DNA from: a virus
Direction: 5' to 3' (one strand)
Length of the DNA: 64,000 nucleotides
Virus record (IMG/VR): IMGVR_UViG_3300041407_000094
Location: 1-64,000 of that record
In this document: positions 5,465 through 59,399 of the stretch, piece after piece
Position numbering within the stretch: the first letter of the stretch is position 1
Layout of the letters: each line of letters opens with the position of its first letter
The notes under the pieces: generated by a model
The model's database searches: none
The model's input: only the letters and a program-made list of their open reading frames with translations
What the model was told of the DNA's origin: nothing
Program-made: the position numbers and the translations under genes

Positions 5465-5578
5465 TTGAATCTCCTATCAGATTGGTTCTGAGCGTCATCG
5501 CGACGAGTCGGAGTTCTTTGTAGCTAATTAGGTGAGGGCGTCATCCCGACGAGCCTCGATACAACTCTTTATAAATCT

Positions 5579-6957: not shown

Positions 6958-8346
6958 CTACAATCCTAAAGCAGCCGTATAAGCTGGGATAGCGTATCCA
7001 GCCAATGTTAGATAACCATTAGCCGTAGGGTGTGTATTATCCAATGTCTCAAAGCCTGTCCATGTGATGGTATCAATCCAAACAAGCTTAGGATTAGCTT
7101 TAGCATCCATCACAGCTTTCAATGTGACGTTTGCAGCATTAACCAACTCTGGAGCACCAGTGTTAGGCAGAATCCCACGACACAATACTTTGCCATATCC
7201 TTTAGCCAGCAACTTATCAATACACAATCCATAATCAGTTTGTTCTGTGCTATCAATACCACCAGAGCCGCTATTACCACCCAGTGCTAAGATTGCTACA
7301 TCATTAGCTGTCACAGTCTTCATAGCCAAGGCAGCATCAATCATTGCCTTGCCACCACCTGTAGTTTGACCACTAACACCATTCGTGCTACCAACAAACC
7401 CAAGGGCTGCTGCTACGTGCATTGTCTCAGTGTTTACTGAAGTAGCTCCGGGACCAGAACCGTAAGTGATGCTGTCACCAAATTGGTCAAGCTTTCTTCG
7501 GACACCAATGTCAAGCAGTGTGCTATTGCCGCTTACAGCAAAATGTCCACCAAGCTCTCTGAATGCACCACCATCCCACACATTGTATGTTGCTACAGAG
7601 CCATCACAAGGAATAACAATAGCCCGAGGAACACCATCAGCTTCAGGAGGGGCTGTGTAATAAGTGGGTGTACCACCATTCTTACTCACACCAACCCTAG
7701 AGGATGTAGCTACAATCTTAGTGAATGCCCCACGTATCTTCACAGAGCCTACGTTAGATCCACTGGTTACATTACTTGGTGCTTGGAGAGGCGGGGAATA
7801 TCCGGCAACGTTTGGTATGATCCCAGCAGAATACAAGCCTGTAGCTGAATCACTGCCTGCCTGAATCCAATTAGATGCTGTAACAAGGGATGGAGGTTGA
7901 CCTGTAACACTCAAGACATTTCCAGAGGATGCCACATAGGGAGCATCACCCATCTGCACAACCCACCTTACTTGAACAAAGTAGGTAGCGTGAGGAAGGC
8001 CTGTGAAGAGAGTGTATACAGATGCAGAGTTAGGGGCGCTAGTGAAGTCACCACCGTCTACGCTCACTTGCATAGACCCGGCATTATCACCATAATCTGA
8101 AGGAGATGTAAGCAACGCTTGCGTGCCTGTAATCCATCCACACCACAATGTCAAAGCACCGTAGGCATATACTCTTGCAGCATTCTTAGTTGTATTAAGA
8201 GAGCCTGCAAAGCCCGGAACGAACTGAGAGGATGTGAAGGGTGCAGTTGTGGGATCAGGAATTACAACGGAATGCTTTAGTTTAAAACTGTGAAGAGGTC
8301 TTGAAATAGAGCTGACAACTGGAGAGGTGATATCATGAGTCATCAT
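6958..8346 (-). CDS. SGNH/GDSL hydrolase-domain protein, probably a virion-associated esterase
   Basis: Block I FGDSIT, block II NGVSG, block III LGGN, block V DNTHP; beta-rich N-terminal region. Confidence 0.8.
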   Translation of the reverse strand: MMTHDITSPVVSSISRPLHSFKLKHSVVIPDPTTAPFTSSQFVPGFAGSLNTTKNAARVYAYGALTLWCGWITGTQALLTSPSDYGDNAGSMQVSVDGGDFTSAPNSASVYTLFTGLPHATYFVQVRWVVQMGDAPYVASSGNVLSVTGQPPSLVTASNWIQAGSDSATGLYSAGIIPNVAGYSPPLQAPSNVTSGSNVGSVKIRGAFTKIVATSSRVGVSKNGGTPTYYTAPPEADGVPRAIVIPCDGSVATYNVWDGGAFRELGGHFAVSGNSTLLDIGVRRKLDQFGDSITYGSGPGATSVNTETMHVAAALGFVGSTNGVSGQTTGGGKAMIDAALAMKTVTANDVAILALGGNSGSGGIDSTEQTDYGLCIDKLLAKGYGKVLCRGILPNTGAPELVNAANVTLKAVMDAKANPKLVWIDTITWTGFETLDNTHPTANGYLTLAGYAIPAYTAALGL

Positions 8347-9647: not shown

Positions 9648-9723
9648 TGGCTGGCGATCCTGAATTCGAATCAGGGACAACTTGATTAACAGTCAAGCGC
9701 TCTACCAACTGAGCTAATCGCCA
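9648..9723 (-). tRNA. tRNA-Asn (GUU)
   Basis: 76-nt cloverleaf TGGCGAT...CTTGA-CT-GTT-AA-TCAAG...TTCGAAT...ATCGCCA-G-CCA with encoded CCA. Confidence 0.95.
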
Positions 9724-10070: not shown

Positions 10071-10331
10071 TTAATCTTCTATTTGTAAAACACCGGAATG
10101 CACATATTTGATAATTCCATTATTCTCCTCCCAGTATCGAATATAGTCTAGAATGCCTGTCTTACGTTCCGTGTCTTTCAATGGAATCCCGCACATGCAA
10201 GAACCTTTTACAAAATATATGTAATGACTTAAGAAATCACTATAGTCAGGGACAAAGCCTTCATAGAATAATTGTTCCGCTTCCTTAAAGCCGTACCACC
10301 AAGTGTTTACAGTTTTATGCTGCTTGCTCAT
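10071..10331 (-). CDS. Hypothetical protein
   Basis: ATGA overlap with upstream polymerase-like gene. Confidence 0.6.
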   Translation of the reverse strand: MSKQHKTVNTWWYGFKEAEQLFYEGFVPDYSDFLSHYIYFVKGSCMCGIPLKDTERKTGILDYIRYWEENNGIIKYVHSGVLQIED

Positions 10332-11575
10332 ACGCTCAATTTCTCCTCAATCGAAATACCATCTTCTTTCCAATTCAAACTGATTGGAACTAGATAATCT
10401 ACACCGAACATTTTACGAAAGCAATCACCCATAGTCTTTGATAGCAAGTCAGCATTCTTAGTCTGAACCAAAAATGAGTCGTGTACTGGCAAGCATGGGA
10501 TATTCTTTTCAATCATTACTTCTAGAATATCATTAGCCAAATGACTATCAGCGTTCTGTAAAATACGTCCCATGCTATCTGGGCAACAGAAGAAATCACC
10601 AAACTGTGGGTATTTATCATAGATAAGCAACATCACGGCTTTTGCACCGCCAAGGGAATACTTCTTTTTGTCTTCATCCTTAAGCAGATTAATCTCTTTA
10701 CGAATAGCACCCTCTGCATCGTCATCGTTATAGCAGTTGAACATGATATTTACTGCAAGCTTTACAATACGACGATCTACTGTGTTTGTTTCATCTTCAA
10801 GAATACCTGAGTAAACATCTAGTGGTAGGTATTCAACATCAATGTCTTTCAAAGCTGCTGCTACACGAAAATGAAGATTACAGAAATCAATCTCACAAAC
10901 TTCTTGACCTTCAATCTTAATATCAAGCCGTGCATCAGTGTCACGATTCTTAATTGCCAATACATCGGCCTTATAGAACCTACCACCATAAGCAAACGAC
11001 TCGTTGAAGATGCGACAGTAGAAGTTTGTTAGGGTCTTACCATTTCCATCCTCAATACGGAATGATTCATTCATGTGGTTGAGCTTACGAACAACCTCTT
11101 CCATCTTCTTAATGTCTTGCGTATTACGATAAGGGATTGAATTCTTGTCTTCATCTCGCAATTCAATAACCTTCACTGTGTCTTCATATGCTTTCATAGT
11201 TTCCTCAATCAATTCTTCCGTGTGCCAGACTTCAATGAACTTCTGGGTTGGAGTGATGTAGCTGACTTCTCTCTTCTCTTTAATCTTATGTGGCTTACCC
11301 TTAACATTAACCACATATCCATCGTGTACTAGATACTCAATACAACGAATAACCTTACGAGATGTAATATCTTTCTTACTACTTGTCTTTGTTCCTCCTG
11401 TATCTCTACTGTACACAAGCTTGCATTGTTTCTTCAGGCAAGCAATGAGGTTAGTGACAACCACACCTAGTGTAGTGATATCCTTATACCCATACACCCT
11501 AATAGCATTACTTACCTCTCTACTAACCTTAATATCATATGTTAGTAGCTTAGTATTCAAGACTACCTCTCCCAT
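10328..11575 (-). CDS. wHTH + PolA/T7-RNAP-superfamily polymerase-like protein, copy 1
   Basis: GGRFY, motif A EIDFCNLH, motif B RRIVKLAVN, LQNADS, motif C PVHDSF. Start placed at ATG 11575 (GGAGG RBS); ORF track extends to 11647. Confidence 0.75.
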   Translation of the reverse strand: MGEVVLNTKLLTYDIKVSREVSNAIRVYGYKDITTLGVVVTNLIACLKKQCKLVYSRDTGGTKTSSKKDITSRKVIRCIEYLVHDGYVVNVKGKPHKIKEKREVSYITPTQKFIEVWHTEELIEETMKAYEDTVKVIELRDEDKNSIPYRNTQDIKKMEEVVRKLNHMNESFRIEDGNGKTLTNFYCRIFNESFAYGGRFYKADVLAIKNRDTDARLDIKIEGQEVCEIDFCNLHFRVAAALKDIDVEYLPLDVYSGILEDETNTVDRRIVKLAVNIMFNCYNDDDAEGAIRKEINLLKDEDKKKYSLGGAKAVMLLIYDKYPQFGDFFCCPDSMGRILQNADSHLANDILEVMIEKNIPCLPVHDSFLVQTKNADLLSKTMGDCFRKMFGVDYLVPISLNWKEDGISIEEKLSV

Positions 11576-11716
11576 CCTCCTCCATACCTCCCTACTATCA
11601 TATAACGCAATTTTAGAGACAAAATGCTCTGTAGGCCACAGCCACAAAGGCTTGTAGCAAAAATCCCATAAATAAGTTTGCCTAAATTCGTCTGTACGCA
11701 GTCATTCCAAGCAACC

Positions 11717-11778
11717 ATAGTGACAGATAAAATATTTACTGTCAACCCCTTGCAATCAAAAATATTAGGGTGTACACT
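11717..11778. promoter_or_regulatory. Back-to-back divergent sigma70-like promoters
   Basis: Minus: TTGACA(11745-11740)-17-CACTAT; plus: TTGCAA(11750-11755)-17-TACACT; located at the strand switch. Confidence 0.6.
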
Positions 11779-28067: not shown

Positions 28068-28769
28068 TCTCATATCTAGTATTGGTGTTTACTCTAATTG
28101 GAATACGTTCGAGATGGAGTAAAATATCTACACCCCTTGTAAACAAAGGCTTTCACAGCAAAACCCCTTATAGATTTTATATTAACAAAATATAGGTTGG
28201 TAACTTAATATCACCAACTCCCCTCTGGAATAGGACTAGCTTTCAACTAGTAGTCCTAATTTTCTGTATCTTAAATATGTGTAAGATCCTTATAAGCCTT
28301 TGAAATTACTAGATATTTAGACTAGGTGTTTAGCAAGGGTAACACACCCCGTTTTAACATGCAAGAGGAATTTAAAATATTGGAGACTTCGCCGACGAAC
28401 GGTCTACCTAGACTGCATGCACCTATCGTACCAACTAAACTACCACCTGTCGCCTAAACTAAATGTCTTGACAGGAGCACTGACCTATGGATGTAACAGC
28501 TTAGCTTGCTATGGGAACGTGTAACATGGATTATGTTCAAGTAATACTATAACACTACTGACCAGTCACCCTGAACAGACTACATATGTCAACCATAATA
28601 ATCTCCTCTGCACAACTAGCACACTTCACTAGCTTAAGTCAATGTATTGTGATGTTTGTGAGCAAGGATTGGCTAAGAGATGGGTGGAATGGAATCGTTA
28701 CAGGGGGAAGCAGCGACAAGAGCGTCTGTGCTTAACTACCAAAGGTAGTCTCGCATACTTACAGATGAC

Positions 28770-28863
28770 TATAAAGTGACTAAAACACTCTTATCAGTCA
28801 CATTGGAGACTAAGTAGAATAAAGCTTTGACAGGATTTGTTAGTGTTTATAAAGTGACTAAAA
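28770..28863 (+). repeat. 16-bp direct repeat TATAAAGTGACTAAAA
   Basis: Exact copies at 28770-28785 and 28848-28863. Confidence 0.85.
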
Positions 28864-28894
28864 GAAGAGGTGTAGTCATATTTAAGACAACATA

Positions 28895-28916
28895 AAGCCG
28901 ACTCTTTAGTCGGCTT
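28895..28916 (-). terminator. Intrinsic terminator for the minus-strand block
   Basis: AAGCCGACT-4 nt-AGTCGGCTT hairpin followed by T-rich sequence on the minus strand. Confidence 0.65.
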
Positions 28917-29122
28917 AGAATTACCCTGCTAGAGTGTCAGACTACAACTTCCTTCACTAACCAGTCTTCAGGATCGTCTACAGACTGTTTGACTATCTCC
29001 ACAGCCTGCTGTGCAGTACTGGCTTGAACAGCCTGAGAGTGGGTGACAGAGCTGAACTGGTTGATTAGGGTGATTGTATAAGTAGTCATTTTGTTTAATC
29101 TCTGTTTGTCTTTGGTGTTTAG

Positions 29123-43037: not shown

Positions 43038-44414
43038 TCATTTTTGATCCACCTTTACAAATTCTTTGGAGCCGATAACATCATTCCATGCTTCGACCAT
43101 TGCTGAATGTAACAATTCACCTGCACTTGCTCGGCACTGAAAACTGTCATGCCAACACAGAACAACTTCACCAGACTGTAGCATCAAATCAATCACTCGT
43201 AAAGCAATTTCGCTATCAAGATTTTGTAACCAAATACCCTTATCTTGAAAGAAATCCTTAGAAATCAAATGGTTGTGTGCACAAACTACCATTAACACCT
43301 GTTTAGTATCAGGTTTAATCAGCCCAACATACTCACGATCTGCTATGTTTTTCTTACCGTCGGTGAACAATTCATGGGATAGACTAGACCATGCACGATC
43401 AAAACTATCACAATTCAACGCCCTCATAACAGCATGTTTCATAAAGGATCGCGCGGGATTATATTTCTTAATACCAAACCGAAGTTTGTGTTCTTCCACT
43501 GCTACATGGTCCACACGAAGGCATGATTCATCAGCACCATACGGGTCTACATCTTTTGAAACCAAATCAAGAATTTGAGGCTCTTTTTGAGACAAAATTT
43601 CTAGAAGAATTCTTGGGTGGTTTGCTGAATAGTCCCACTCCTGAACAGATTCACCCTCAATTGTGATGGCAGACAAGCGTAATTCTTGAGGAACAAGCTG
43701 AATACTTCCTCCGTGTGCAAACAACCGACCACCACTATTGAAGTCACCACTGAAACTACGATGGTATTCTAGCAAAGGGACCTCTTTACCATTAAATCGG
43801 ATGTCAACACTTGACAAACTCTCATTGTAACGAGCCATTTCCTGAGCCATCTTGTCAATCATGCCTGTTTTCTCTACTTCGATCATCTCTTTTGTCTTCC
43901 TATCTTTCAAAATAATAGGGTAATCCATAGCAACGCTAGGGACGTGTAATTCTAATTGTTTCTTGTCAAACAAGTCAACCAGTTTTTGATTGAATCGGAC
44001 AACACTCATATAAGAAAAGTCTTCATTTCGATAGTCATGACTGCCTTTGAGAACATAAATGTATTCATTTTCGCTCATATAACCAAGAACAGAATTAATT
44101 CCACGAGCACTAATACCACAATCGTTACCTGTCCAGTAGGCAGATTGTAGCTTTACAGAGAAACCCATGTAGTTGTCTCTTAACGATCTTGCTGTATTAG
44201 TGAAGAACCATTGTACTGCTTCAAACTTCTTGTACTTTAATTCTTTGTTCACTTGATCAACAAGATGGTTATATGCTTTGTTTGGTGATCTGTAAGGCTT
44301 ACCTTTAGCTGTAGTGATGAGAACAGAATATAACTCTCTACCAACTAAATCTCTTACCTTATATACTACATCTTTCTTCTCTTTCTCATCTATTATATTA
44401 CTAATCTCACTCAT
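43038..44414 (-). CDS. wHTH + PolA/T7-RNAP-superfamily polymerase-like protein, copy 2
   Basis: GGRLF, motif A EWDYSANH, motif B RSFMKHAV, LQNLDS, motif C CWHDSF; collinear with 10328-11575. Confidence 0.75.
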   Translation of the reverse strand: MSEISNIIDEKEKKDVVYKVRDLVGRELYSVLITTAKGKPYRSPNKAYNHLVDQVNKELKYKKFEAVQWFFTNTARSLRDNYMGFSVKLQSAYWTGNDCGISARGINSVLGYMSENEYIYVLKGSHDYRNEDFSYMSVVRFNQKLVDLFDKKQLELHVPSVAMDYPIILKDRKTKEMIEVEKTGMIDKMAQEMARYNESLSSVDIRFNGKEVPLLEYHRSFSGDFNSGGRLFAHGGSIQLVPQELRLSAITIEGESVQEWDYSANHPRILLEILSQKEPQILDLVSKDVDPYGADESCLRVDHVAVEEHKLRFGIKKYNPARSFMKHAVMRALNCDSFDRAWSSLSHELFTDGKKNIADREYVGLIKPDTKQVLMVVCAHNHLISKDFFQDKGIWLQNLDSEIALRVIDLMLQSGEVVLCWHDSFQCRASAGELLHSAMVEAWNDVIGSKEFVKVDQK

Positions 44415-46954: not shown

Positions 46955-47179
46955 ATCTTAACCTCATCACCAACCCCTGTCAACCCTTCCTTCGAAAAAT
47001 CTTCTGACAGAGTGTAGATAAATCTACCAAACAAATTTGCTGGGTAAATCTACTGAATAAATTTACCAAATGGGTTTACCAAAGGAGGGTTTCCCTGAAT
47101 TGAGAGCTTAGAGAATATTTTTAAATCAGTGCGTAATTTTACAAATTACCCTTGACAGGTGTGTAGGAACATGTAAACT
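46955..47179. promoter_or_regulatory. Divergent sigma70 promoters
   Basis: Minus: TTGACA(46983-46978)-17-TAAGAT; plus: TTGACA(47152-47157)-16-TAAACT. Confidence 0.7.
47018..47082 (+). repeat. Five tandem degenerate 13-mers (consensus ~ATAAATYTACCAA)
   Basis: ataaatctaccaa / acaaatttgctgg / gtaaatctactga / ataaatttaccaa / atgggtttaccaa. Confidence 0.75.
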
Positions 47180-47212
47180 GAGGCCAATCGAAAACCCTGA
47201 AGGAGCATAATC

Positions 47213-48591: not shown

Positions 48592-50451
48592 TTGAGTAAT
48601 ATCCGAGAGGTCATATCTCATTATCTTGATATCTCTGGAGATAAGTGTTGCTGCCCTTTTCACAAGGAACGCACACCATCTCTGAATATCTTTGACGATA
48701 CCAATTCATTTTATTGTTTTGGCTGTGGTCAGAGTGGGGATGAGATTGAGTTTGTGAAGGACTACAAAGGTTTGACATTTCCCAACGCTGTTAAGGAAGT
48801 GTGTTCAATTCTGAAATTAACCAAAGAGGAGCTTATGGAAAGTAAAGATAAAGAAAAGGTTGCTGAGAAAGTAGCTATTGAGAATGCTGAAGTTATGGAT
48901 GTTGAAGAAGTTAAATCTCTCATTCAATCCACAGGATATGTGAGTCATGGGTATCGCGGTATCCGAGATGACATTAACAAATTCTTTGGGCATTTGAGTA
49001 AACTGGATAGTCAAGGTAAAGTCCTTGCACGCTACTACCCAGAAACCAATAACAACGGTAAGTTGACAGGTTATAAATGCAGAAACACACCAAAGGACTT
49101 TAGTCACGGAAACCAAGGAATTACTGGCAGTAAGAGTCAACTTAGTGGTCAGGTGAAATTCAAATCCCCCGCTAAATATGTTCTCTATGTTGGTGGCGAG
49201 GAGGATAAAGCAGCAGCTTTTCAGATGCTCAAGGATAATCGTAAGGATCAGGAGTTCGATTCTATTCCTGTAGTAAGCTCAACGGTTGGTGAGTTGACAG
49301 CAGCCAAACAAGCTGCCCAACAATATGACTGGTTTGACATGTACGATATCATCGTAATTGGCATGGATAACGATGAAGCTGGTCGTGCTGCTGCAAAGAA
49401 GATTGCAGACGTTCTACCAAAAGAGAAAGTACGAATTGCTACATGGTCCGGCAAAGATCCAAATCAGATGTTGATTGATGGTAAAGAGAAACAATTTGTT
49501 CGTGATTTCTACAATGCAAAAGAATTCATTAGTAGTGGTATTTCCTCTTCTGGTGACGCTGAAGCTGGTTTGGCTGAGTTCCTGACAGCTCCAAAGATTG
49601 GTCTACCACCTCAACTGAGCAAGCTTGAGGCTGCAATGCGTGGTGGTATCAAATCTACTGGCTCCGTTGTGAACATTATTGGTGACACAAGTATTGGTAA
49701 GAGCTTTCTGTCTGACACTCTGATCTATCATTGGTTGTTCAACAGTCCTCGTGTACCAACAATTGTCAGTCTTGAGCGAACTAAGGAAGAGTTGACAATT
49801 GATTTGCTGTCAATGCATCTTAAGAAAAACCTGATGTGGTTCACAGATGGTCACGATGCTGTGGATTATCTGAATCAACCTGAAGTACAAGTATTGAAGA
49901 ATAATCTTCTTTACAACGAAGCTGGTGAGCCTCGATTCTTTATTATTGATGAGCGGGAAGGGGAGATTGAACTTCTCAAGCGTCAGATGGAGAAAAGTGG
50001 TAAAGTCAATGATTCACGACTGATGGTGATTGACCCACTCACTGACTTCTTGCGATCATTAGGGACAGAGGTTCAAGAAAACTTTATGATGTGGCAGAAG
50101 TTGCAAAAGAAGAATGGTTTTGTATTCATCAACATTCTTCACACCCGCAAGCCACCAACTGATAAAGATGGCAATGTTCGCAAGGTTACGGAATATGACG
50201 CACTTGGTTCTGGGACATTTATCCAGTCAGCAGACGTGAATATTGTGATCAATCGTGATAAGATGGCTTCAGATCCGATTGAGAAGAATACGACCTATGT
50301 TGACATGCCTAAGTGTCGTGGGGGTATCACTGGTGAGATTTGTGCGCTATACTATGACGCTGAAACTCGTCAGCAGTATGATCGTGATGAGTATTTTGAC
50401 CGTAAAGTAGAAGATCCACCGCAACATCATGCGGATGAGATTGATTTTTAA
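48592..50451 (+). CDS. DNA primase-helicase (CHC2 zinc finger, Toprim, DnaB-like)
   Basis: CPFH.ERTPS...CFGC; GGEED and MDNDEAG; KDPN; GDTSIGKS; VIDPL; KCR. Confidence 0.92.
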   Translation: MSNIREVISHYLDISGDKCCCPFHKERTPSLNIFDDTNSFYCFGCGQSGDEIEFVKDYKGLTFPNAVKEVCSILKLTKEELMESKDKEKVAEKVAIENAEVMDVEEVKSLIQSTGYVSHGYRGIRDDINKFFGHLSKLDSQGKVLARYYPETNNNGKLTGYKCRNTPKDFSHGNQGITGSKSQLSGQVKFKSPAKYVLYVGGEEDKAAAFQMLKDNRKDQEFDSIPVVSSTVGELTAAKQAAQQYDWFDMYDIIVIGMDNDEAGRAAAKKIADVLPKEKVRIATWSGKDPNQMLIDGKEKQFVRDFYNAKEFISSGISSSGDAEAGLAEFLTAPKIGLPPQLSKLEAAMRGGIKSTGSVVNIIGDTSIGKSFLSDTLIYHWLFNSPRVPTIVSLERTKEELTIDLLSMHLKKNLMWFTDGHDAVDYLNQPEVQVLKNNLLYNEAGEPRFFIIDEREGEIELLKRQMEKSGKVNDSRLMVIDPLTDFLRSLGTEVQENFMMWQKLQKKNGFVFINILHTRKPPTDKDGNVRKVTEYDALGSGTFIQSADVNIVINRDKMASDPIEKNTTYVDMPKCRGGITGEICALYYDAETRQQYDRDEYFDRKVEDPPQHHADEIDF

Positions 50452-50461
50452 GGAGAAGGTT

Positions 50462-52684
50462 TTGGATAAGAAGTGGTATGAATCAGACTTTATTTACGAT
50501 TTGGAGTCGTACCCGAATGTTTTCTCTATGAGCATCATCCATGCTTCTGGTAAACACATGCGAGTTTTTGAGATTAGTGATCGTAAGAATGAAATTGAAG
50601 GGATTGCTAAATGCTTGCGATATCTGGTTCAGAATAAATGTCGTATGGTGGGATTTAACAATAACTCATACGACTACACTCTTATCCATGAAATCATTAA
50701 ATCTCTGAAGGAAGCAAAGCAAACTGGTAAAGCTCCAAATATTACAGCTCAGAAGCTTTACAAACTCACAACTCAAATCATTACAAAAATGCAGTCTGAA
50801 GATAAGTGGTACGGCATTAAAGAAGCTGACCACTTTATTCAACAGGTTGATTTGTATAAAATTCACCATATGGATAACATGGCGAAAGCTACATCTTTGA
50901 AGATGTTGGAAGTGAACATGCGATCTACCAACGTGGAGGATTTACCCTTTCCTGTTGGTAAGAAGCTGACAAGTGATGAAATTGATATCTTATTGCATTA
51001 TAACAAACACGATGTTAATGAAACTCTGAAGTTCTATTACTACTCTTATGAGGCGATTGAGCTTCGTAAGGAGTTGTCTGAGAAGTTTGGATTTGACTGC
51101 ACAAGTTTTAGTGATAGTAAGATTGGTGAAACCTTGTTTATCAACCGTCTAGAACAAGCTCAGAAGGGTTTGTGCTATGAGTACAGTAAACATGGTGGCC
51201 GTAAGATCAATCAGACCAAGCGTGACAATGTAAAGATTAAAGATTGTCTTTTTGACTATCTGAAATTTGATCGTCCTGAGTTTAGGGCTGTACATGATTG
51301 GTTGAGTAATCAGACAGTGCAAGAAACTAAGGGTGTCTTCAATGATTATGAAGAACATCAGATCGGTGATCTTGCTAAGTATGCTCAGATGAAAACCAAA
51401 AAGGTGTTGTTCAAGAATAGGTTGAATCTCGATAATAAAGATAAACCTAAAGCTGACTTTGATTTTACTGATCTAGATCACTTGGAAGAACTTCAACGTC
51501 TGAAAGATGAATTCTTGAAAGAACATCCTATGGGATATTTTGAAGAGAAGGAAACTAAAACGTCACGCTCTCATAAGCTTAAGGTAACTGCTTTCTATCG
51601 AGTGGTTGAGGCAATTAACACTGTAATTGATGATAAGGTGTACGTGTACGGTACTGGCGGTATTCACATGTCTATTGAAAGTGAGACTGTGAGAGCAGAT
51701 GACGAATGGACAATTATAGACGCCGACGTCACCAGTATGTACCCGTCGATTTCCATTGCCAACAACGTGTATCCTGAACATCTCGGTATTACATTCTGTA
51801 AAGTGTACAAGGATCTATTTATGGAGCGTGGTAGATATCCAAAAGGTAGTGGTCCAAATGGTGCAATTAAGCTAGCATTGAACTCTGTGTACGGTAAGTC
51901 CAACAGTGAGTTTAGTCCGCTTTATGACCCTAAATATACCTTAACTATCACCATTAACGGTCAACTGTGCCTGTCTATGCTGGCTGAAAAACTGATTGAT
52001 CTTGGTTGTAAGATGATTCAATGTAATACTGACGGTGTGACAGCTTTGGTTCCACGCAGTAAGGAAGCTGATTATTATGCAATCACAAAAGAATGGGAAA
52101 AAACTGTTGGACTTCGGTTGGAGTATGCTGTATATTCAATGATGGCTTTGGGAAACGTTAACAACTACATCGCCGTTTATGAAGATGGGAAGGTGAAGAG
52201 TAAAGGTCAGTATGAAGTTGCTCACTTTGAAAAGCTTGGATGGTCTAAAAACCATTCTGCGATGATCGTGCCAAAGGCTGCACTTGACTACATTGTTTAT
52301 GGTAAAGATATTGAAGAGACTATTCGTTCTCACAAGGATGAATTTGATTTTCTTTTGAGGGCGAAAGTACCACGTAGCTCAAAGCTTTATCTTTGTTATG
52401 AGGACGGTCGTGAGGTTCAGCAACAGAACATCTGCCGCTACTATCCATCTGAACAAGGTGGTAAATTGGTCAAGCTGATGCCAGCCTTGATTGATGGTGG
52501 TGAATGGCGTAGACTTGGATTGGACACTGAATGGACGGTTGAGACGTGCAACAACATTGCAGAGTTTGACTGGAATAAACTTAACTATGATTATTACATC
52601 AAGGAGGCTCAAAAGCTGATTGATGGTGTGGGGATGAAAGAAATTGAAAATAATGCTTTACAGGGCCATGAAAACGTGGAATAA
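50462..52684 (+). CDS. Family B-type DNA polymerase with 3'-5' exonuclease
   Basis: Exo DLESY, GFNNNSYD, YNKHDV; Pol DVTSMYPS, KLALNSVYGK, NTDG; TTG start at 50462 after AGGAG. Confidence 0.9.
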   Translation: MDKKWYESDFIYDLESYPNVFSMSIIHASGKHMRVFEISDRKNEIEGIAKCLRYLVQNKCRMVGFNNNSYDYTLIHEIIKSLKEAKQTGKAPNITAQKLYKLTTQIITKMQSEDKWYGIKEADHFIQQVDLYKIHHMDNMAKATSLKMLEVNMRSTNVEDLPFPVGKKLTSDEIDILLHYNKHDVNETLKFYYYSYEAIELRKELSEKFGFDCTSFSDSKIGETLFINRLEQAQKGLCYEYSKHGGRKINQTKRDNVKIKDCLFDYLKFDRPEFRAVHDWLSNQTVQETKGVFNDYEEHQIGDLAKYAQMKTKKVLFKNRLNLDNKDKPKADFDFTDLDHLEELQRLKDEFLKEHPMGYFEEKETKTSRSHKLKVTAFYRVVEAINTVIDDKVYVYGTGGIHMSIESETVRADDEWTIIDADVTSMYPSISIANNVYPEHLGITFCKVYKDLFMERGRYPKGSGPNGAIKLALNSVYGKSNSEFSPLYDPKYTLTITINGQLCLSMLAEKLIDLGCKMIQCNTDGVTALVPRSKEADYYAITKEWEKTVGLRLEYAVYSMMALGNVNNYIAVYEDGKVKSKGQYEVAHFEKLGWSKNHSAMIVPKAALDYIVYGKDIEETIRSHKDEFDFLLRAKVPRSSKLYLCYEDGREVQQQNICRYYPSEQGGKLVKLMPALIDGGEWRRLGLDTEWTVETCNNIAEFDWNKLNYDYYIKEAQKLIDGVGMKEIENNALQGHENVE

Positions 52685-57287: not shown

Positions 57288-58476
57288 ATGAGGAGCTTGA
57301 GAGGATCTGTAGAGAACTTGGCATTGATAAACCTGAAATGGTTTGTAGGAGTATGGAAATTGACTGAACCAAAACCAAATAAAACCTACATTATCCAACA
57401 CAAAGAAACAAAAGAGTTGTTCATTGCACGGTCTGGCAAGTCCTCTTGGAAACAGCCTGGACATGCCAAGAATGCTTGGAATCAAAGCTTCTATTCATCC
57501 AAACAAGTAGAGGCTCTTGGGATGAATATGATAGCTGATGCCAGTCGTTATAATCCTGAACGTACTCGTGTTCCGCTATTCTCAGAGCAAGATAACTTTG
57601 AAGTGGTAGAACTTAAACACGAAGCTCATAGTAAACTTGACGAGGCTGTTAATCTTCTTCGATCTGTCCTAGGTCGTTGTGATTATCAAGTACATAATGA
57701 AATCGTTAAATTTTTGGAGAGTGTAGAATGACTGACAAAACTAAGATGTCCAACCTTGAATCCTATCAGGAATTAACTATTCAAATTTCTACGCTAAATC
57801 TAAAGCTTGATAAAATTCTAAGTTTGTTGAATAAGCCACAAGAAGAATATGTAATCAACCAACTAGTAACCCACACACACTTGGACGCTCGTGACCCTGA
57901 GATTACAAGGGTGGTTAACAAAGCTATTGCTCAGCTTTCTGACAACGAAAACTTTGAGGATTCTTTTAAATGATTAAAGATTATTGGACAGCAATCTTCT
58001 GGTGTGAATTTGTCCAGTTTAGTGTTTATTTCAATGTGTGGTGCTCACAATTGGGGATATGATCCGGAGGATCTAGATATGTCAGTTATAGAGATGTTTC
58101 CAAAGAAACCAGACACAGATAAATCAGTTGATCACACTATCTCTAAGTTAGACTTCTGGCGCTGGCGGAATGAGATTATATCGAGGGATTTTCATACTTT
58201 CTCGATCTACCAAAAACAAGAGACGCTTGATACAATATTGAATATCAACAACCAGCTATATCAACTTATTTTAGAATTGAAGGGAGAGATTTAATGAACA
58301 TTACGTTCTTCACATTGGAGGATGCTTTAGACTGTGTATGTGATATTGACGGGAAAGTGTTCAGTTATCTAGATGGTGAGCCAGAGAATGCAATCTACAA
58401 CCTTTTGAGATTTTGTGGGCACACTGTTAATCGGGTTGAACTTACAGAAGAAGAATATGAGGAGAAGTTTCAGTGA
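57288..58476 (+). other. Small hypothetical ORFs
   Basis: Coupled ORFs; starts uncertain. Confidence 0.55.
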
Positions 58477-59399
58477 GTGAGTGGAATTGGAGAGATAAAG
58501 CACAACGACTAAAAGAACAAGGTTTGTCTAGTCGGGAAATTGGTAAAATTTTAGGTAAGGGGAAATCTACTATTAATGATTATCTATCTTTAGTGAAAAA
58601 GATGGCTGCAAATATTCCTCTAGAAACAAAAGGTCCAAAGATTCTATTTATCGATATTGAAACGAAGCCCATCCTTGCACATGTATGGCGACTATTTGAT
58701 CAGAACGTTGGATTGAACCAAATCCAAGAAGATTGGTCAATCTTGTCTTACTGTGCAAAATGGAAAGGGTCTGACGAAGTAATTTATGAAGACCTTCAAG
58801 GATCTGCTGATTTTGAAGATGATAGTAAACTTCTTGGTAATCTTTGGAAGTTGATGAATGAAGCCGATATTATTGTTGGTCAAAACAGTAAACGATTTGA
58901 TGTGAAGAAAATCAATGCGCGTTTGGTACTGAACGGCTACCCTAAGCCAAGTACATTCCGTCAGATTGACACACTCAACATTGCTAAAGCTCAGTTTGGT
59001 TTTACAAGTAATAAGCTTCAATACATGACAGATCAGCTTTGCACCAAGTATAAGAAACTTGAGCATGGCAAGTTTGCAGGCCACTTGCTTTGGTCAGAAT
59101 GTATGAAGAATAACCCAGAAGCTTGGGCTGAAATGAAACTGTATAATATCAATGATGTGTTGAGTCTAGAAGAACTCTACGACATTCTCAGTAGCTGGGA
59201 CAATACACTTCCTAACTTTGATGTCTATGTAGATGAAATTCTAGATATGTCTGTGTGGGAAGAAGATGGTTTCCATTACTCCAACGTGGGTAAATACAAA
59301 CGGTATCGCAATAAAGTTACTGGTGTTCAACGTAGGTCGCGTGTTAATCTATTAAACAAAGAAAAGCGTGATAGTTTGTTGTCTAATATTGCGGGGTAA
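58473..59399 (+). CDS. RNase H-like (DEDD) 3'-5' exonuclease with N-terminal HTH
   Basis: GLSSREIGKILGKGKSTI; IDIET, GQNSKRFD, IDTL, YNINDV. Confidence 0.85.
   Translation: MSEWNWRDKAQRLKEQGLSSREIGKILGKGKSTINDYLSLVKKMAANIPLETKGPKILFIDIETKPILAHVWRLFDQNVGLNQIQEDWSILSYCAKWKGSDEVIYEDLQGSADFEDDSKLLGNLWKLMNEADIIVGQNSKRFDVKKINARLVLNGYPKPSTFRQIDTLNIAKAQFGFTSNKLQYMTDQLCTKYKKLEHGKFAGHLLWSECMKNNPEAWAEMKLYNINDVLSLEELYDILSSWDNTLPNFDVYVDEILDMSVWEEDGFHYSNVGKYKRYRNKVTGVQRRSRVNLLNKEKRDSLLSNIAG

What the first reader, a model, noticed from the sequence alone, without database searches (positions are those of the whole stretch)
10328..11670. Minimal wHTH-PolA/T7-RNAP-like polymerase (copy 1 of a paralogous pair) in a phage that already has PolB
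Seen: this protein and 43038-44414 share, in order, an N-terminal winged-helix-like segment, I.L[RK]D, GGR[FL], E.D[FY]...H, R...K..V, G..LQN.DS and HDSF, i.e. motifs A, B and C with both catalytic Asp, but no exonuclease and about half the size of T7 RNAP. Known: these motifs define the PolA/single-subunit RNAP superfamily, whose small divergent members (TV-Pol-like) are poorly characterised. Inference: site-specific primases/replication initiators or mini RNA polymerases. Two diverged intact copies about 32 kb apart suggest distinct cognate sites.
Basis: partly seen in the sequence, partly recalled or inferred. Interest (0 to 1): 0.75.

Follow-up and report, generated by a model that had tools for sequence, protein, structure and literature searches.

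The report
Mini PolA-like polymerase (divPolA2) paralog
This phage gene encodes a real, half-size relative of DNA polymerase I and T7 RNA polymerase joined to a probable DNA-binding head; the family was described by computer analysis in 2024, and its job is still untested.

Summary
The gene at 10328-11575 (-) (415 aa from the likely ATG) and its paralog at 43038-44414 (-) share 22% identity (E 1e-11). [quoted passage not shown] It has no exonuclease domain. The N-terminal domain looks like a winged helix, at modest scores.

The family is already in print as "divPolA2" (Yutin et al. 2024, PMC11348598). The paper's own representative, AUR84708, matches my family profile at 99.7%. So this is a new member of a known but uncharacterised kind. 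An earlier agent of this scan reached the same family for copy 2.

New points here:
- the winged-helix reading of the N-terminal domain;
- the size of the family, 8004 clusters at 50% identity;
- 8 of 10 members, including both copies here, carry H / N / HDS where AUR84708 keeps the PolA-like E / Y / DE;
- a homolog in the model phage ICP1, ORF100, which its review says is not predicted to encode an RNA polymerase.

My best guess for function is a DNA-site-targeted initiating polymerase that primes replication at an origin. A special-purpose RNA polymerase is the close rival. Neither is shown.

The parts
10328..11575 (-). Copy 1 coding sequence (415 aa from the ATG at 11575; the longest ORF reaches the TTG at 11647). 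A divPolA2-family polymerase.
   Evidence: start; family
11243..11530 (-). N-terminal winged-helix-like domain (residues 40-135, numbered from the TTG ORF).
   Evidence: Whole model: ranks 22-50 in VIA are winged-helix proteins, Z 6.5-5.7. Domain folded alone (pLDDT 84): Foldseek's top hits are MarR/PadR/GntR regulators, E 0.0066-0.06, none <=0.001. VIA's top rows are nearly all winged-helix proteins, Z 6.3-5.2, none >=8. Weak profile hits to TrmB (E 0.02), PadR and RPA32 winged helices. Pfam HTH_34, HTH_46 and MarR_2 hits on at most 5 of 59 members.
11063..11242 (-). Linker (residues 136-195): two helices and the IELRD strand, at the place where PolA enzymes carry the thumb.
   Evidence: Secondary structure of the model. 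L163, R164 and D165 are conserved in 44, 42 and 40 of 59 members.
10331..11062 (-). Minimal palm and fingers polymerase domain (residues 196-439). It carries GGRFY (R223), motif A ExDFxxLHxR (D254, H259), motif B RxxxK...N (R292, K296, N304), LQNxDS (Q364, D367, S368) and motif C HDSF (H389, D390).
11576..11745 (-). Upstream region of copy 1: a TTGACA box at 11745-11740, then a leader of about 135 nt ending in GGAGGAGG.
   Evidence: Sequence. Conserved in the 4 close orthologous loci while DNA further upstream diverges. Leader against coding identity: 94% vs 79% in L010, but 74% vs 78% in L009. No significant RNA fold, z 0.37. No second copy in the genome above shuffles.
43038..44414 (-). Copy 2 coding sequence (458 aa), the diverged paralog.

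Best explanation
Both genes encode active, thumbless, exonuclease-less polymerases of the PolA / T7-RNAP superfamily. Each is tethered to a fast-evolving winged-helix DNA-binding head. I think each is made from its own promoter early in infection and is brought by its winged helix to a specific place on the phage DNA. There it starts or extends a short nucleic-acid chain. That chain serves as the leading-strand primer at a replication origin, which the phage's PolB and its gp4-like helicase-primase then take over. This is the job T7 RNA polymerase does at the T7 origin and mitochondrial RNA polymerase does at mtDNA origins. It is not the replicative polymerase.

Shown: the fold, the intact catalytic residues, the domain layout, the paralogy, family membership and genomic position.

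Inferred: early expression, DNA-site binding, de novo initiation, the nature of the product (RNA or DNA) and the link to replication.
For: - Fold and active site: AF2 pLDDT 87. All 50 listed Foldseek rows are family-A polymerases, 58 matches at E<=0.001, best 1.2e-5. VIA ranks 1-21 are all PolA DNAPs or T7, mitochondrial or N4 RNAPs, Z 14.4-6.9, including yeast mtRNAP at Z 13.2. D254, D390, R223 and K296 are present in 59 of 59 members.
- There is no exonuclease and only a two-helix linker where the thumb should be. That fits short products rather than processive synthesis.
- The N-terminal domain is winged-helix-like. It diverges faster than the polymerase part: 43% vs 58% mean identity among copy-1 orthologs, 16% vs 26% between the two paralogs.
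- The phage has a T7-style replisome: a Zn-ribbon + Toprim + DnaB_C primase-helicase, a gp2.5-like SSB, an exonuclease and PolB. It has no T7-type RNA polymerase: PF00940 matches nothing but this gene, and that below cut-off.
- The gene usually heads its own unit. 32 of 40 loci have at least 95 nt of non-coding DNA upstream and 19 of 40 have a divergent upstream neighbour (crude ORF calls). Copy 1 sits behind a conserved TTGACA box.
- There are one to two copies per genome here: 2 in each of 3 complete relatives, 1 in Barba19A. The paper reports up to 3.
- Precedent: the A-family polymerase CCPol primes DNA de novo with its partner MP (passages read).
- No T7-like repeated promoter exists in the genome.
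Against: - The phage already has a DnaG-type primase domain in its gp4-like protein.
- The two genes are not in the replication module (47213-66219). Their neighbours are variable small genes, and no partner gene is conserved: the largest neighbour cluster holds 4 proteins across 38 loci.
- No origin has been mapped. No iteron or repeated site was found next to either gene.
- The copy-1 leader occurs only once in the genome.
- At the copy-2 locus the upstream DNA is 88-92% identical to that of a relative whose polymerase is only 28% identical. If there is a cognate site, it is not there.
- Sequence methods alone do not tie the protein to any polymerase. There are no Pfam hits above cut-off, no polymerase among PDB profile hits, and hhalign against T7 RNAP fails.
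- Whether it uses NTPs or dNTPs cannot be read from the sequence. Motif A is PolA-like but has His where PolA has the steric-gate Glu. Motif C is RNAP-like.
Confidence: 0.35

Rival explanations
1. A miniature single-subunit RNA polymerase. Made early by host RNA polymerase, each paralog uses its winged helix as a promoter-recognition module and transcribes a subset of phage genes, for example the structural module.
For: - Motif C is HDSF, and the T/DxxGR-like GGRFY and the QxxDSHL stretch resemble T7 RNAP's HDSFGT, WRGRVY and SQDGSHL.
- The only recurring Pfam signal for the catalytic half is RNA_pol PF00940: 4 of 59 members, best E 2.3e-4, with no DNA_pol_A among the 25 families shown; also (E 0.017).
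- Mitochondrial and T7 RNAPs score Z 13.2 and 11.1.
- Of 24 strong sigma70-like sites, the 10 that are intergenic and co-oriented with a gene all lie in the early, middle or replication regions, or before one lone plus-strand gene. None faces the minus-strand structural module. So late transcription is unexplained.
- 8 of 10 members, including both copies here, replace the PolA sugar-selecting residues E, Y and E with H, N and S.
Against: - There is no repeated phage-specific promoter. No 12-mer occurs more than 4 times, and the enriched upstream words are only A/T-rich stop-codon contexts and TTGACAG.
- The protein has no counterpart of the T7 N-terminal domain, intercalating hairpin or specificity loop (415 aa).
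- It has His, not Gly, at the steric-gate position and Asn, not Tyr, at the Y639 position.
- All PF00940 hits are below the gathering score.
- A thumbless enzyme is a poor candidate for operon-length transcripts.
Confidence: 0.25
2. An accessory DNA polymerase for repair, gap filling or synthesis across damaged or modified phage DNA. This is one of the two options offered by Yutin et al. 2024.
For: - The best structural matches are DNA polymerases: apicoplast Pol Z 14.4, Pol nu 14.1, Klenow 13.4, Pol theta 12.3.
- Motif A, DxxxL[H]xR, is in register with T7 DNAP's DASGLELR.
- One member, AUR84708, keeps Glu, Tyr and DE exactly as in PolA.
- The phage encodes thymidylate-synthase-like, nucleotide-kinase and MazG-like genes and a denV-like glycosylase. 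Copy 2 lies about 580 nt upstream of the latter.
Against: - A sequence-diverging winged-helix head and 1-3 paralogs per genome are not expected of a repair enzyme.
- The gene sits at the head of units of small early-type genes, not with repair genes.
- In 9 of 10 members compared, the PolA-type Glu of motif C and the O-helix Tyr are replaced.
Confidence: 0.12
3. A counter-defence or host-takeover enzyme that makes a nucleic-acid product unrelated to phage genome replication or transcription, such as a decoy.
For: - The gene lies in an early-type position among variable small genes.
- Cassette-like allele replacement at a conserved locus: flanks are 88-92% identical while the protein is 28% identical.
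- The family is very large and fast-evolving.
- A truncated homolog in a Thioclava plasmid lies beside an IS21 element, a methyltransferase, a helicase fragment and AbiE genes.
Against: There is no hit to any defence or anti-defence family. I did not scan PADLOC. The Thioclava copy is cut by the IS element. Nothing in the structure points to a template-independent activity.
Confidence: 0.08

Closest known systems
divPolA2 (Yutin, Tolstoy, Mutz, Wolf, Krupovic, Koonin 2024, Virol J 21:200, PMC11348598; section 'Two novel phage PolAs' read)
   Same: It is the same family. My 59-member profile matches the paper's representative AUR84708 at hhalign 99.7%, E 9e-26, and Barba19A gp041 at 99%, E 5e-18. 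The palm has catalytic residues, there is no 3' exonuclease, there is an N-terminal globular domain, a regular PolB is also encoded, there are paralogs per genome, and the neighbourhood is variable. All of these are as described.
   Different: [quoted passage not shown] Here it comes out as winged-helix-like, at modest scores. The paper's representative is atypical at three substrate-side positions (E / Y / DE), whereas 8 of 10 members compared, including both copies here, have H / N / HDS. The host phage here is an uncultured 81-kb phage, not a barbavirus.
TV-Pol family (Iyer, Abhiman, Aravind 2008, PMC2579912; parts 1-2 of the text read)
   Same: A minimal PolA-like core: a beta-hairpin Arg, two catalytic Asp and an RxxxK fingers helix. 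No nuclease. Found in viruses and mobile elements. Predicted to prime.
   Different: TV-Pols are tied to D5-like helicases, or to an all-helical N-terminal domain plus integrase, resolvase or transposase genes. None of that is here. Direct sequence relation to TV-Pols was not tested.
CCPol-MP / PolA-SSB primases of SCCmec and Firmicute elements (Bebel et al. 2020, PMC7581432, passages read; Rice 2022 preprint, introduction read)
   Same: An exonuclease-less A-family polymerase domain. Shown to start DNA chains de novo.
   Different: CCPol needs a small OB-fold partner encoded next to it and sits in a helicase-recombinase operon. No conserved neighbour exists here. The DNA-binding module here is fused and is a winged helix.
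T7-like, mitochondrial and N4 single-subunit RNA polymerases (Pfam RNA_pol PF00940)
   Same: The same fold (Z 13.2, 11.1, 8.3). Motif C is HDSF, with a GR[VF]Y hairpin. The gene is likely made early.
   Different: Less than half the size. No N-terminal promoter domain or specificity loop. H259 stands where T7 has G542, and N304 where T7 has Y639. The Pfam score is below cut-off.

Membership tests
divPolA2 | Sequence homology to the published representatives (AUR84708; barbavirus proteins) | tested here: met
   hhalign of A2 against AUR84708: 99.7%, E 9.1e-26. BLASTP of P0001 against AUR84708: E 7e-11. A1 against Barba19A gp041: 99%, E 5e-18. tblastn hits 115 Rheinheimera phage records.
divPolA2 | PolA-type palm with catalytic residues retained | tested here: met
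   D254 and D390 in 59 of 59 members
divPolA2 | No 3'-5' exonuclease domain | tested here: met
   415 aa. The model holds only an N-terminal domain, a linker and palm plus fingers.
divPolA2 | No thumb homologous to that of other DNAPs | tested here: inconclusive
   Two helices (144-157, 177-194) lie where the thumb would be. Model coordinates cannot be inspected with these tools.
divPolA2 | Encoded in addition to a regular replicative DNAP | tested here: met
   PolB at 50429-52684
TV-Pol | Core of hairpin Arg, two Asp and RxxxK | tested here: met
   R223, D254, D390, R292 and K296
TV-Pol | Fusion or neighbourhood with a D5-like helicase, or an all-helical N-domain with integrase, resolvase or transposase | tested here: not met
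   Window annotation. Neighbours in 38 loci are small unrelated ORFs.
TV-Pol | Profile-level sequence relation to TV-Pol members | not tested
   No TV-Pol sequences or model were at hand.
T7-like ssRNAP (PF00940) | Pfam RNA_pol at or above the gathering score | tested here: not met
   14.4 bits against a cut-off of 22. 13.3 bits in the genome search. 4 of 59 members hit weakly.
T7-like ssRNAP (PF00940) | Gly at the steric-gate position and Tyr at the end of the O-helix (T7 G542, Y639; residue roles recalled from the literature) | tested here: not met
   H259 (57 of 59) and N304 (58 of 59), read against the T7-like alignment A5 by motif register
T7-like ssRNAP (PF00940) | Motif C HDSF and a T/DxxGR hairpin | tested here: met
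Family A DNA polymerase (PF00476) | Pfam DNA_pol_A hit | tested here: not met
   No hit at E<=1 for P0001 or P0002. Not among the 25 families shown for 59 members (20 further single-member families were not shown).
Family A DNA polymerase (PF00476) | Fold of the polymerase domain | tested here: met
Family A DNA polymerase (PF00476) | Motif A Glu, motif B Tyr and motif C HDE, as in T7 DNAP | tested here: not met
   H, N and HDS in P0001 and P0002. Only AUR84708, of 10 members, keeps E, Y and DE.
CCPol-MP type PolA-SSB primase | Conserved small partner gene next to the polymerase; helicase-recombinase operon | tested here: not met
   All-against-all BLASTP of up to 3 neighbours on each side in 38 loci: the largest cluster holds 4 proteins.

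The most novel reading that the evidence does not exclude
The main branch of this family, including both copies here and ICP1 ORF100, is the smallest known class of site-specific single-subunit RNA-synthesising polymerases. Its catalytic core of about 250 aa changed its sugar preference through coordinated replacement of the three PolA residues (steric-gate Glu to His, O-helix Tyr to Asn, motif-C Glu to Ser). It is aimed at origins or promoters by a swappable winged helix. If so, thousands of phages thought to rely wholly on host RNA polymerase, ICP1 among them, would carry their own.
Probability: 0.22. Interest if true: 0.8.

Novelty: new member of a known kind. Interest (0 to 1): 0.45.

Why it matters
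The family is very large: 8004 clusters at 50% identity match at E<=0.001, and 5252 at E<=1e-10. It is almost confined to lytic phages. I found 0 and 1 hits in 72,556 plasmids. I found 5 loci in one genome for each of 185,579 species, all on MAG contigs, using patterns tuned to the copy-1 subfamily. It has no Pfam or NCBIfam model.

It defines the smallest natural PolA-type catalytic core known so far. If it initiates chains at defined sites, it would fill a gap in how phages with T7-style replisomes but no T7 RNA polymerase start replication or time late transcription. It could also be a compact, retargetable polymerase for biotechnology.

The homolog in ICP1, a genetically tractable model phage with published replication and RNA-seq maps, makes the question directly testable.

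Tried and rejected
- **Sequence-only links to polymerases failed.** phmmer of P0001 and P0002 against the PDB found nothing relevant. Profiles A1 and A2 against the PDB gave only weak winged-helix and unrelated hits, and no polymerase. hhalign of A1 against T7 RNAP gave probability 0.1%. hhalign of A2 against a 14-sequence T7-like alignment gave 3.7%.
- **The T7 RNAP homolog search was of little use.** It listed only relatives at >=74% identity, too uniform for a sensitive profile.
- **Phage-specific promoters.** k-mer counts over the genome and enrichment in 50 oriented upstream regions gave only TTGACAG and A/T-rich words. The latter sit at stop codons or UP-like positions.
- **Leader RNA.** There is no fold beyond shuffles, z 0.37. 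The alifold covariation term is 0.04.
blastn-short of the 180-nt upstream region finds no second site above shuffles: best 26.3 bits, against 22.3-30.2 in 30 shuffles. A gapped match could be missed.
- **Conserved partner gene.** None found.
- **A 'third carboxylate' idea.** I supposed Glu sits either two residues before the motif-A Asp or after the motif-C Asp. This fits 9 of 10 members but fails in ICP1 ORF100 (SLD and HDA). Dropped.
- **ESM Atlas.** Only 'hypothetical protein' clusters.
- **Rfam on the window.** tRNA only.
- **RNA evidence.** No RNA holder was listed among 16 runs.
- **Not used.** Complex prediction, because I claim no binding.
- **Literature.** 'divPolA2' occurs in 3 held texts, all the same work. 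Searches for small single-subunit RNAPs, barbavirus and ICP1 gp100/ORF100 turned up no functional study in the listings I read.
- **Supplements.** The tables of PMC11348598 may list ICP1 or relatives of this phage, and the ICP1 RNA-seq tables may give the timing of ORF100.
Full report
**What is there.** The window is the first 64 kb of an 81,122-bp phage record, which CheckV rates 92% complete. On the minus strand an ORF runs from 11647 (TTG) to 10328. The likely start is the ATG at 11575, giving 415 aa. It follows GGAGGAGG. The 120 listed homologs cover about 94-95% of the query and are mostly 411-419 aa long. The ESM Atlas holds the protein from residue 25 on. The paralog is at 43038-44414 (-), 458 aa. 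The two share 22% identity, E 1e-11, and both match phrog_4756 ('unknown function') nearly end to end. A profile search finds only these two copies in the genome. They survive in a 59-member alignment with 20% mean column identity: R223, R240, E252, D254, Y279, K296, H389 and D390 are invariant, and H259, N304 and S391 are present in 57-58 of 59.

**Fold.** An AlphaFold2 model of copy 1, built on a 32-sequence alignment, has pLDDT 87.2 and pTM 0.82. Only residues 1-26, upstream of the real start, are disordered. Foldseek against the PDB gives 58 matches at E<=0.001. All 50 rows shown are family-A DNA polymerases, best E 1.2e-5. The TM-scores are low (0.27-0.34) because the query is about half the size of the targets. 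An independent all-against-all structural search ranks only PolA-type DNA polymerases and T7, mitochondrial or N4 RNA polymerases at positions 1-21. The top scores are apicoplast Pol Z 14.4, Pol nu 14.1, Klenow 13.4, yeast mtRNAP 13.2 and T7 RNAP 11.1, falling to 6.9. Ranks 22-50 are winged-helix proteins aligned to residues of about 40-158, Z 6.5-5.7. There is no exonuclease domain.

I folded the first 165 residues alone (pLDDT 83.8). Foldseek's best hits are MarR, PadR and GntR regulators, but only at E 0.0066-0.06. The structural search lists almost only winged-helix proteins, at Z 6.3-5.2 and none >=8. Weak sequence hits point the same way: TrmB E 0.02, PadR, the RPA32 winged helix, and Pfam HTH_34, HTH_46 and MarR_2 on a few members. 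I call the domain winged-helix-like with moderate confidence.

**It is a published family.** Yutin et al. 2024 (PMC11348598, section read) describe 'divPolA2'. [quoted passage not shown] They found it in 110 barbaviruses and other phages beside a regular PolB, sometimes as two or three paralogs, in variable neighbourhoods. They propose a repair DNA polymerase or an RNA polymerase. My profile matches their representative AUR84708 (MG592441.1 25469-26761) at 99.7%, E 9e-26. It matches Barba19A gp041 at 99%, E 5e-18. The term occurs in no other held paper. An earlier agent of this scan reached the same family for copy 2 (e1-6119818). I had found the paper independently.

**Context.** The phage has these features:
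- terminase, portal and protease genes;
- many HNH genes;
- a Zn-ribbon/Toprim/DnaB_C primase-helicase;
- a family-B polymerase;
- a gp2.5-like SSB and an exonuclease;
- nucleotide-metabolism genes;
- no other RNA-polymerase-like gene.

Copy 1 is the first gene of the leftward unit that leads into the packaging and structural genes. It sits behind a TTGACA box (11745-11740) and a leader of about 135 nt. Copy 2 lies inside the leftward early-type block, with 159 nt of non-coding DNA upstream.

Among 36 related IMG/VR loci, 5 MAG loci and the two own loci (40 usable), 32 have at least 95 nt of upstream non-coding DNA and 19 have a divergent upstream neighbour. In my crude ORF calls for this genome, 36 of 148 genes have a divergent upstream neighbour. 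No neighbouring gene family is conserved. Three complete relatives carry two copies each and Barba19A carries one.

Strong sigma70-like promoters are common in the early, middle and replication regions. None faces the structural module. No repeated phage-specific promoter exists.

**Evolution.** The winged-helix part diverges faster than the polymerase part. Between this phage and a close relative (G001) copy 1 is 98% identical. At the copy-2 locus the flanks are 88-92% identical in DNA, yet the polymerase is only 28% identical. That is a cassette-like allele swap.

The copy-1 promoter, leader and gene travel together, while DNA further upstream differs. The leader has no significant RNA structure and no second copy in the genome.

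The family is very large, with 8004 clusters at E<=0.001. It is essentially absent from plasmids. In genomes of isolates I found only MAG contigs, with subfamily-specific patterns.

**Substrate-side residues.** I read these in register with T7 DNAP and T7-like RNAPs. Residue roles are recalled from the literature.
- Motif A is PolA-like (D-x-x-x-L-x-x-R) but has His where PolA has the steric-gate Glu and T7 RNAP has Gly.
- The end of the O-helix has Asn where both PolA and T7 RNAP have Tyr.
- Motif C is HDS(F), as in T7 RNAP, not HDE.

Among 10 members compared, 8 share H / N / HDS. Barba19A has W / N / HDS. ICP1 ORF100 has H / N / HDA. AUR84708, the published representative, keeps the PolA set E / Y / DE. 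The sugar preference therefore cannot be read off. A coordinated change at the three positions is a testable lead.

**ICP1.** An annotation note in Aeromonas phage 4L372D led me to Vibrio phage ICP1. ORF100 (555 aa) matches the profile at 99.9%, E 6e-35, winged-helix region included. The ICP1 review (passages read) makes these points:
- ICP1 has a PolA and a gp4-type helicase-primase;
- ICP1 replicates from one origin by theta replication and later from another by rolling circle;
- what controls that switch is unknown.

I saw no study of ORF100 in the listings.

**Verdict.** The structural interpretation is supported. The functional interpretation is open. I commit, at 0.35, to a site-targeted initiating polymerase that primes phage replication. 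A special-purpose RNA polymerase (0.25), a repair DNA polymerase (0.12) and a counter-defence enzyme (0.08) are the rivals. The finding is a new member of a known, uncharacterised family.

Noticed in passing
HQ641347.1 53113-54780 (L055:4179-5846): Vibrio cholerae phage ICP1 ORF100 (555 aa, 'conserved hypothetical') belongs to the same family (hhalign 99.9%, E 6e-35). Other ICP1 isolates carry a different allele at about 58-59 kb. ICP1 is described as having no RNA polymerase of its own.
   Followed up: partly
window 46974-47212: The divergent intergenic region before the replication module holds three copies of a 20-nt repeat (TAAATCTACCAAACAAATTT-like). They form overlapping palindromes between two back-to-back TTGACA promoters. 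This could be an operator or an origin.
   Followed up: no
window 43038-44414 against L029 (G001): The copy-2 locus shows cassette replacement. Flanking DNA is 88-92% identical, but the polymerase gene and about 1.8 kb downstream have no DNA similarity, and the proteins are 28% identical.
   Followed up: yes
window 5492-5552 (-): Two exact copies of a 15-nt hairpin-forming motif (TCGTCG[C/G]GATGACGC), 46 nt apart, lie upstream of a small gene near the HNH and terminase genes. A looser third copy lies at about 5220.
   Followed up: no
window 28068-28936: An 869-bp stretch without ORFs lies at the convergent junction of two transcription units. It has two short direct-repeat pairs and a TTGACA-type site. 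No Rfam family matches.
   Followed up: no
window 11576-11710 (-): The leader of copy 1 (about 135 nt) is 94-97% identical in three relatives, one of which has only 79% coding identity. A fourth relative shows 74% leader against 78% coding identity. There is no RNA fold signal.
   Followed up: partly
NZ_CP053563.1 34925-35860 (L048): The only plasmid hit is a polymerase-domain-only homolog in a 127-kb Thioclava plasmid. It starts right after an IS21 element and is followed by a DNA methyltransferase and helicase fragments, with AbiE genes nearby.
   Followed up: no
window 50429-52684 and 58473-59399: The PolB gene has no Pfam hit at E<=0.001. A separate 308-aa 'DNA polymerase exonuclease subunit' (phrog_403, RNase_H_2) lies 5.8 kb downstream, so the proofreading function may be a separate protein.
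   Followed up: no
window 9648-9723 (-): A tRNA-Asn (GTT) gene lies between copy 1 and the structural genes. It explains the only nucleotide hits to Staphylococcus phages.
   Followed up: yes
window 6958-8346 (-): A 462-aa protein with a C-terminal GDSL lipase/acylhydrolase domain lies in the late region.
   Followed up: no
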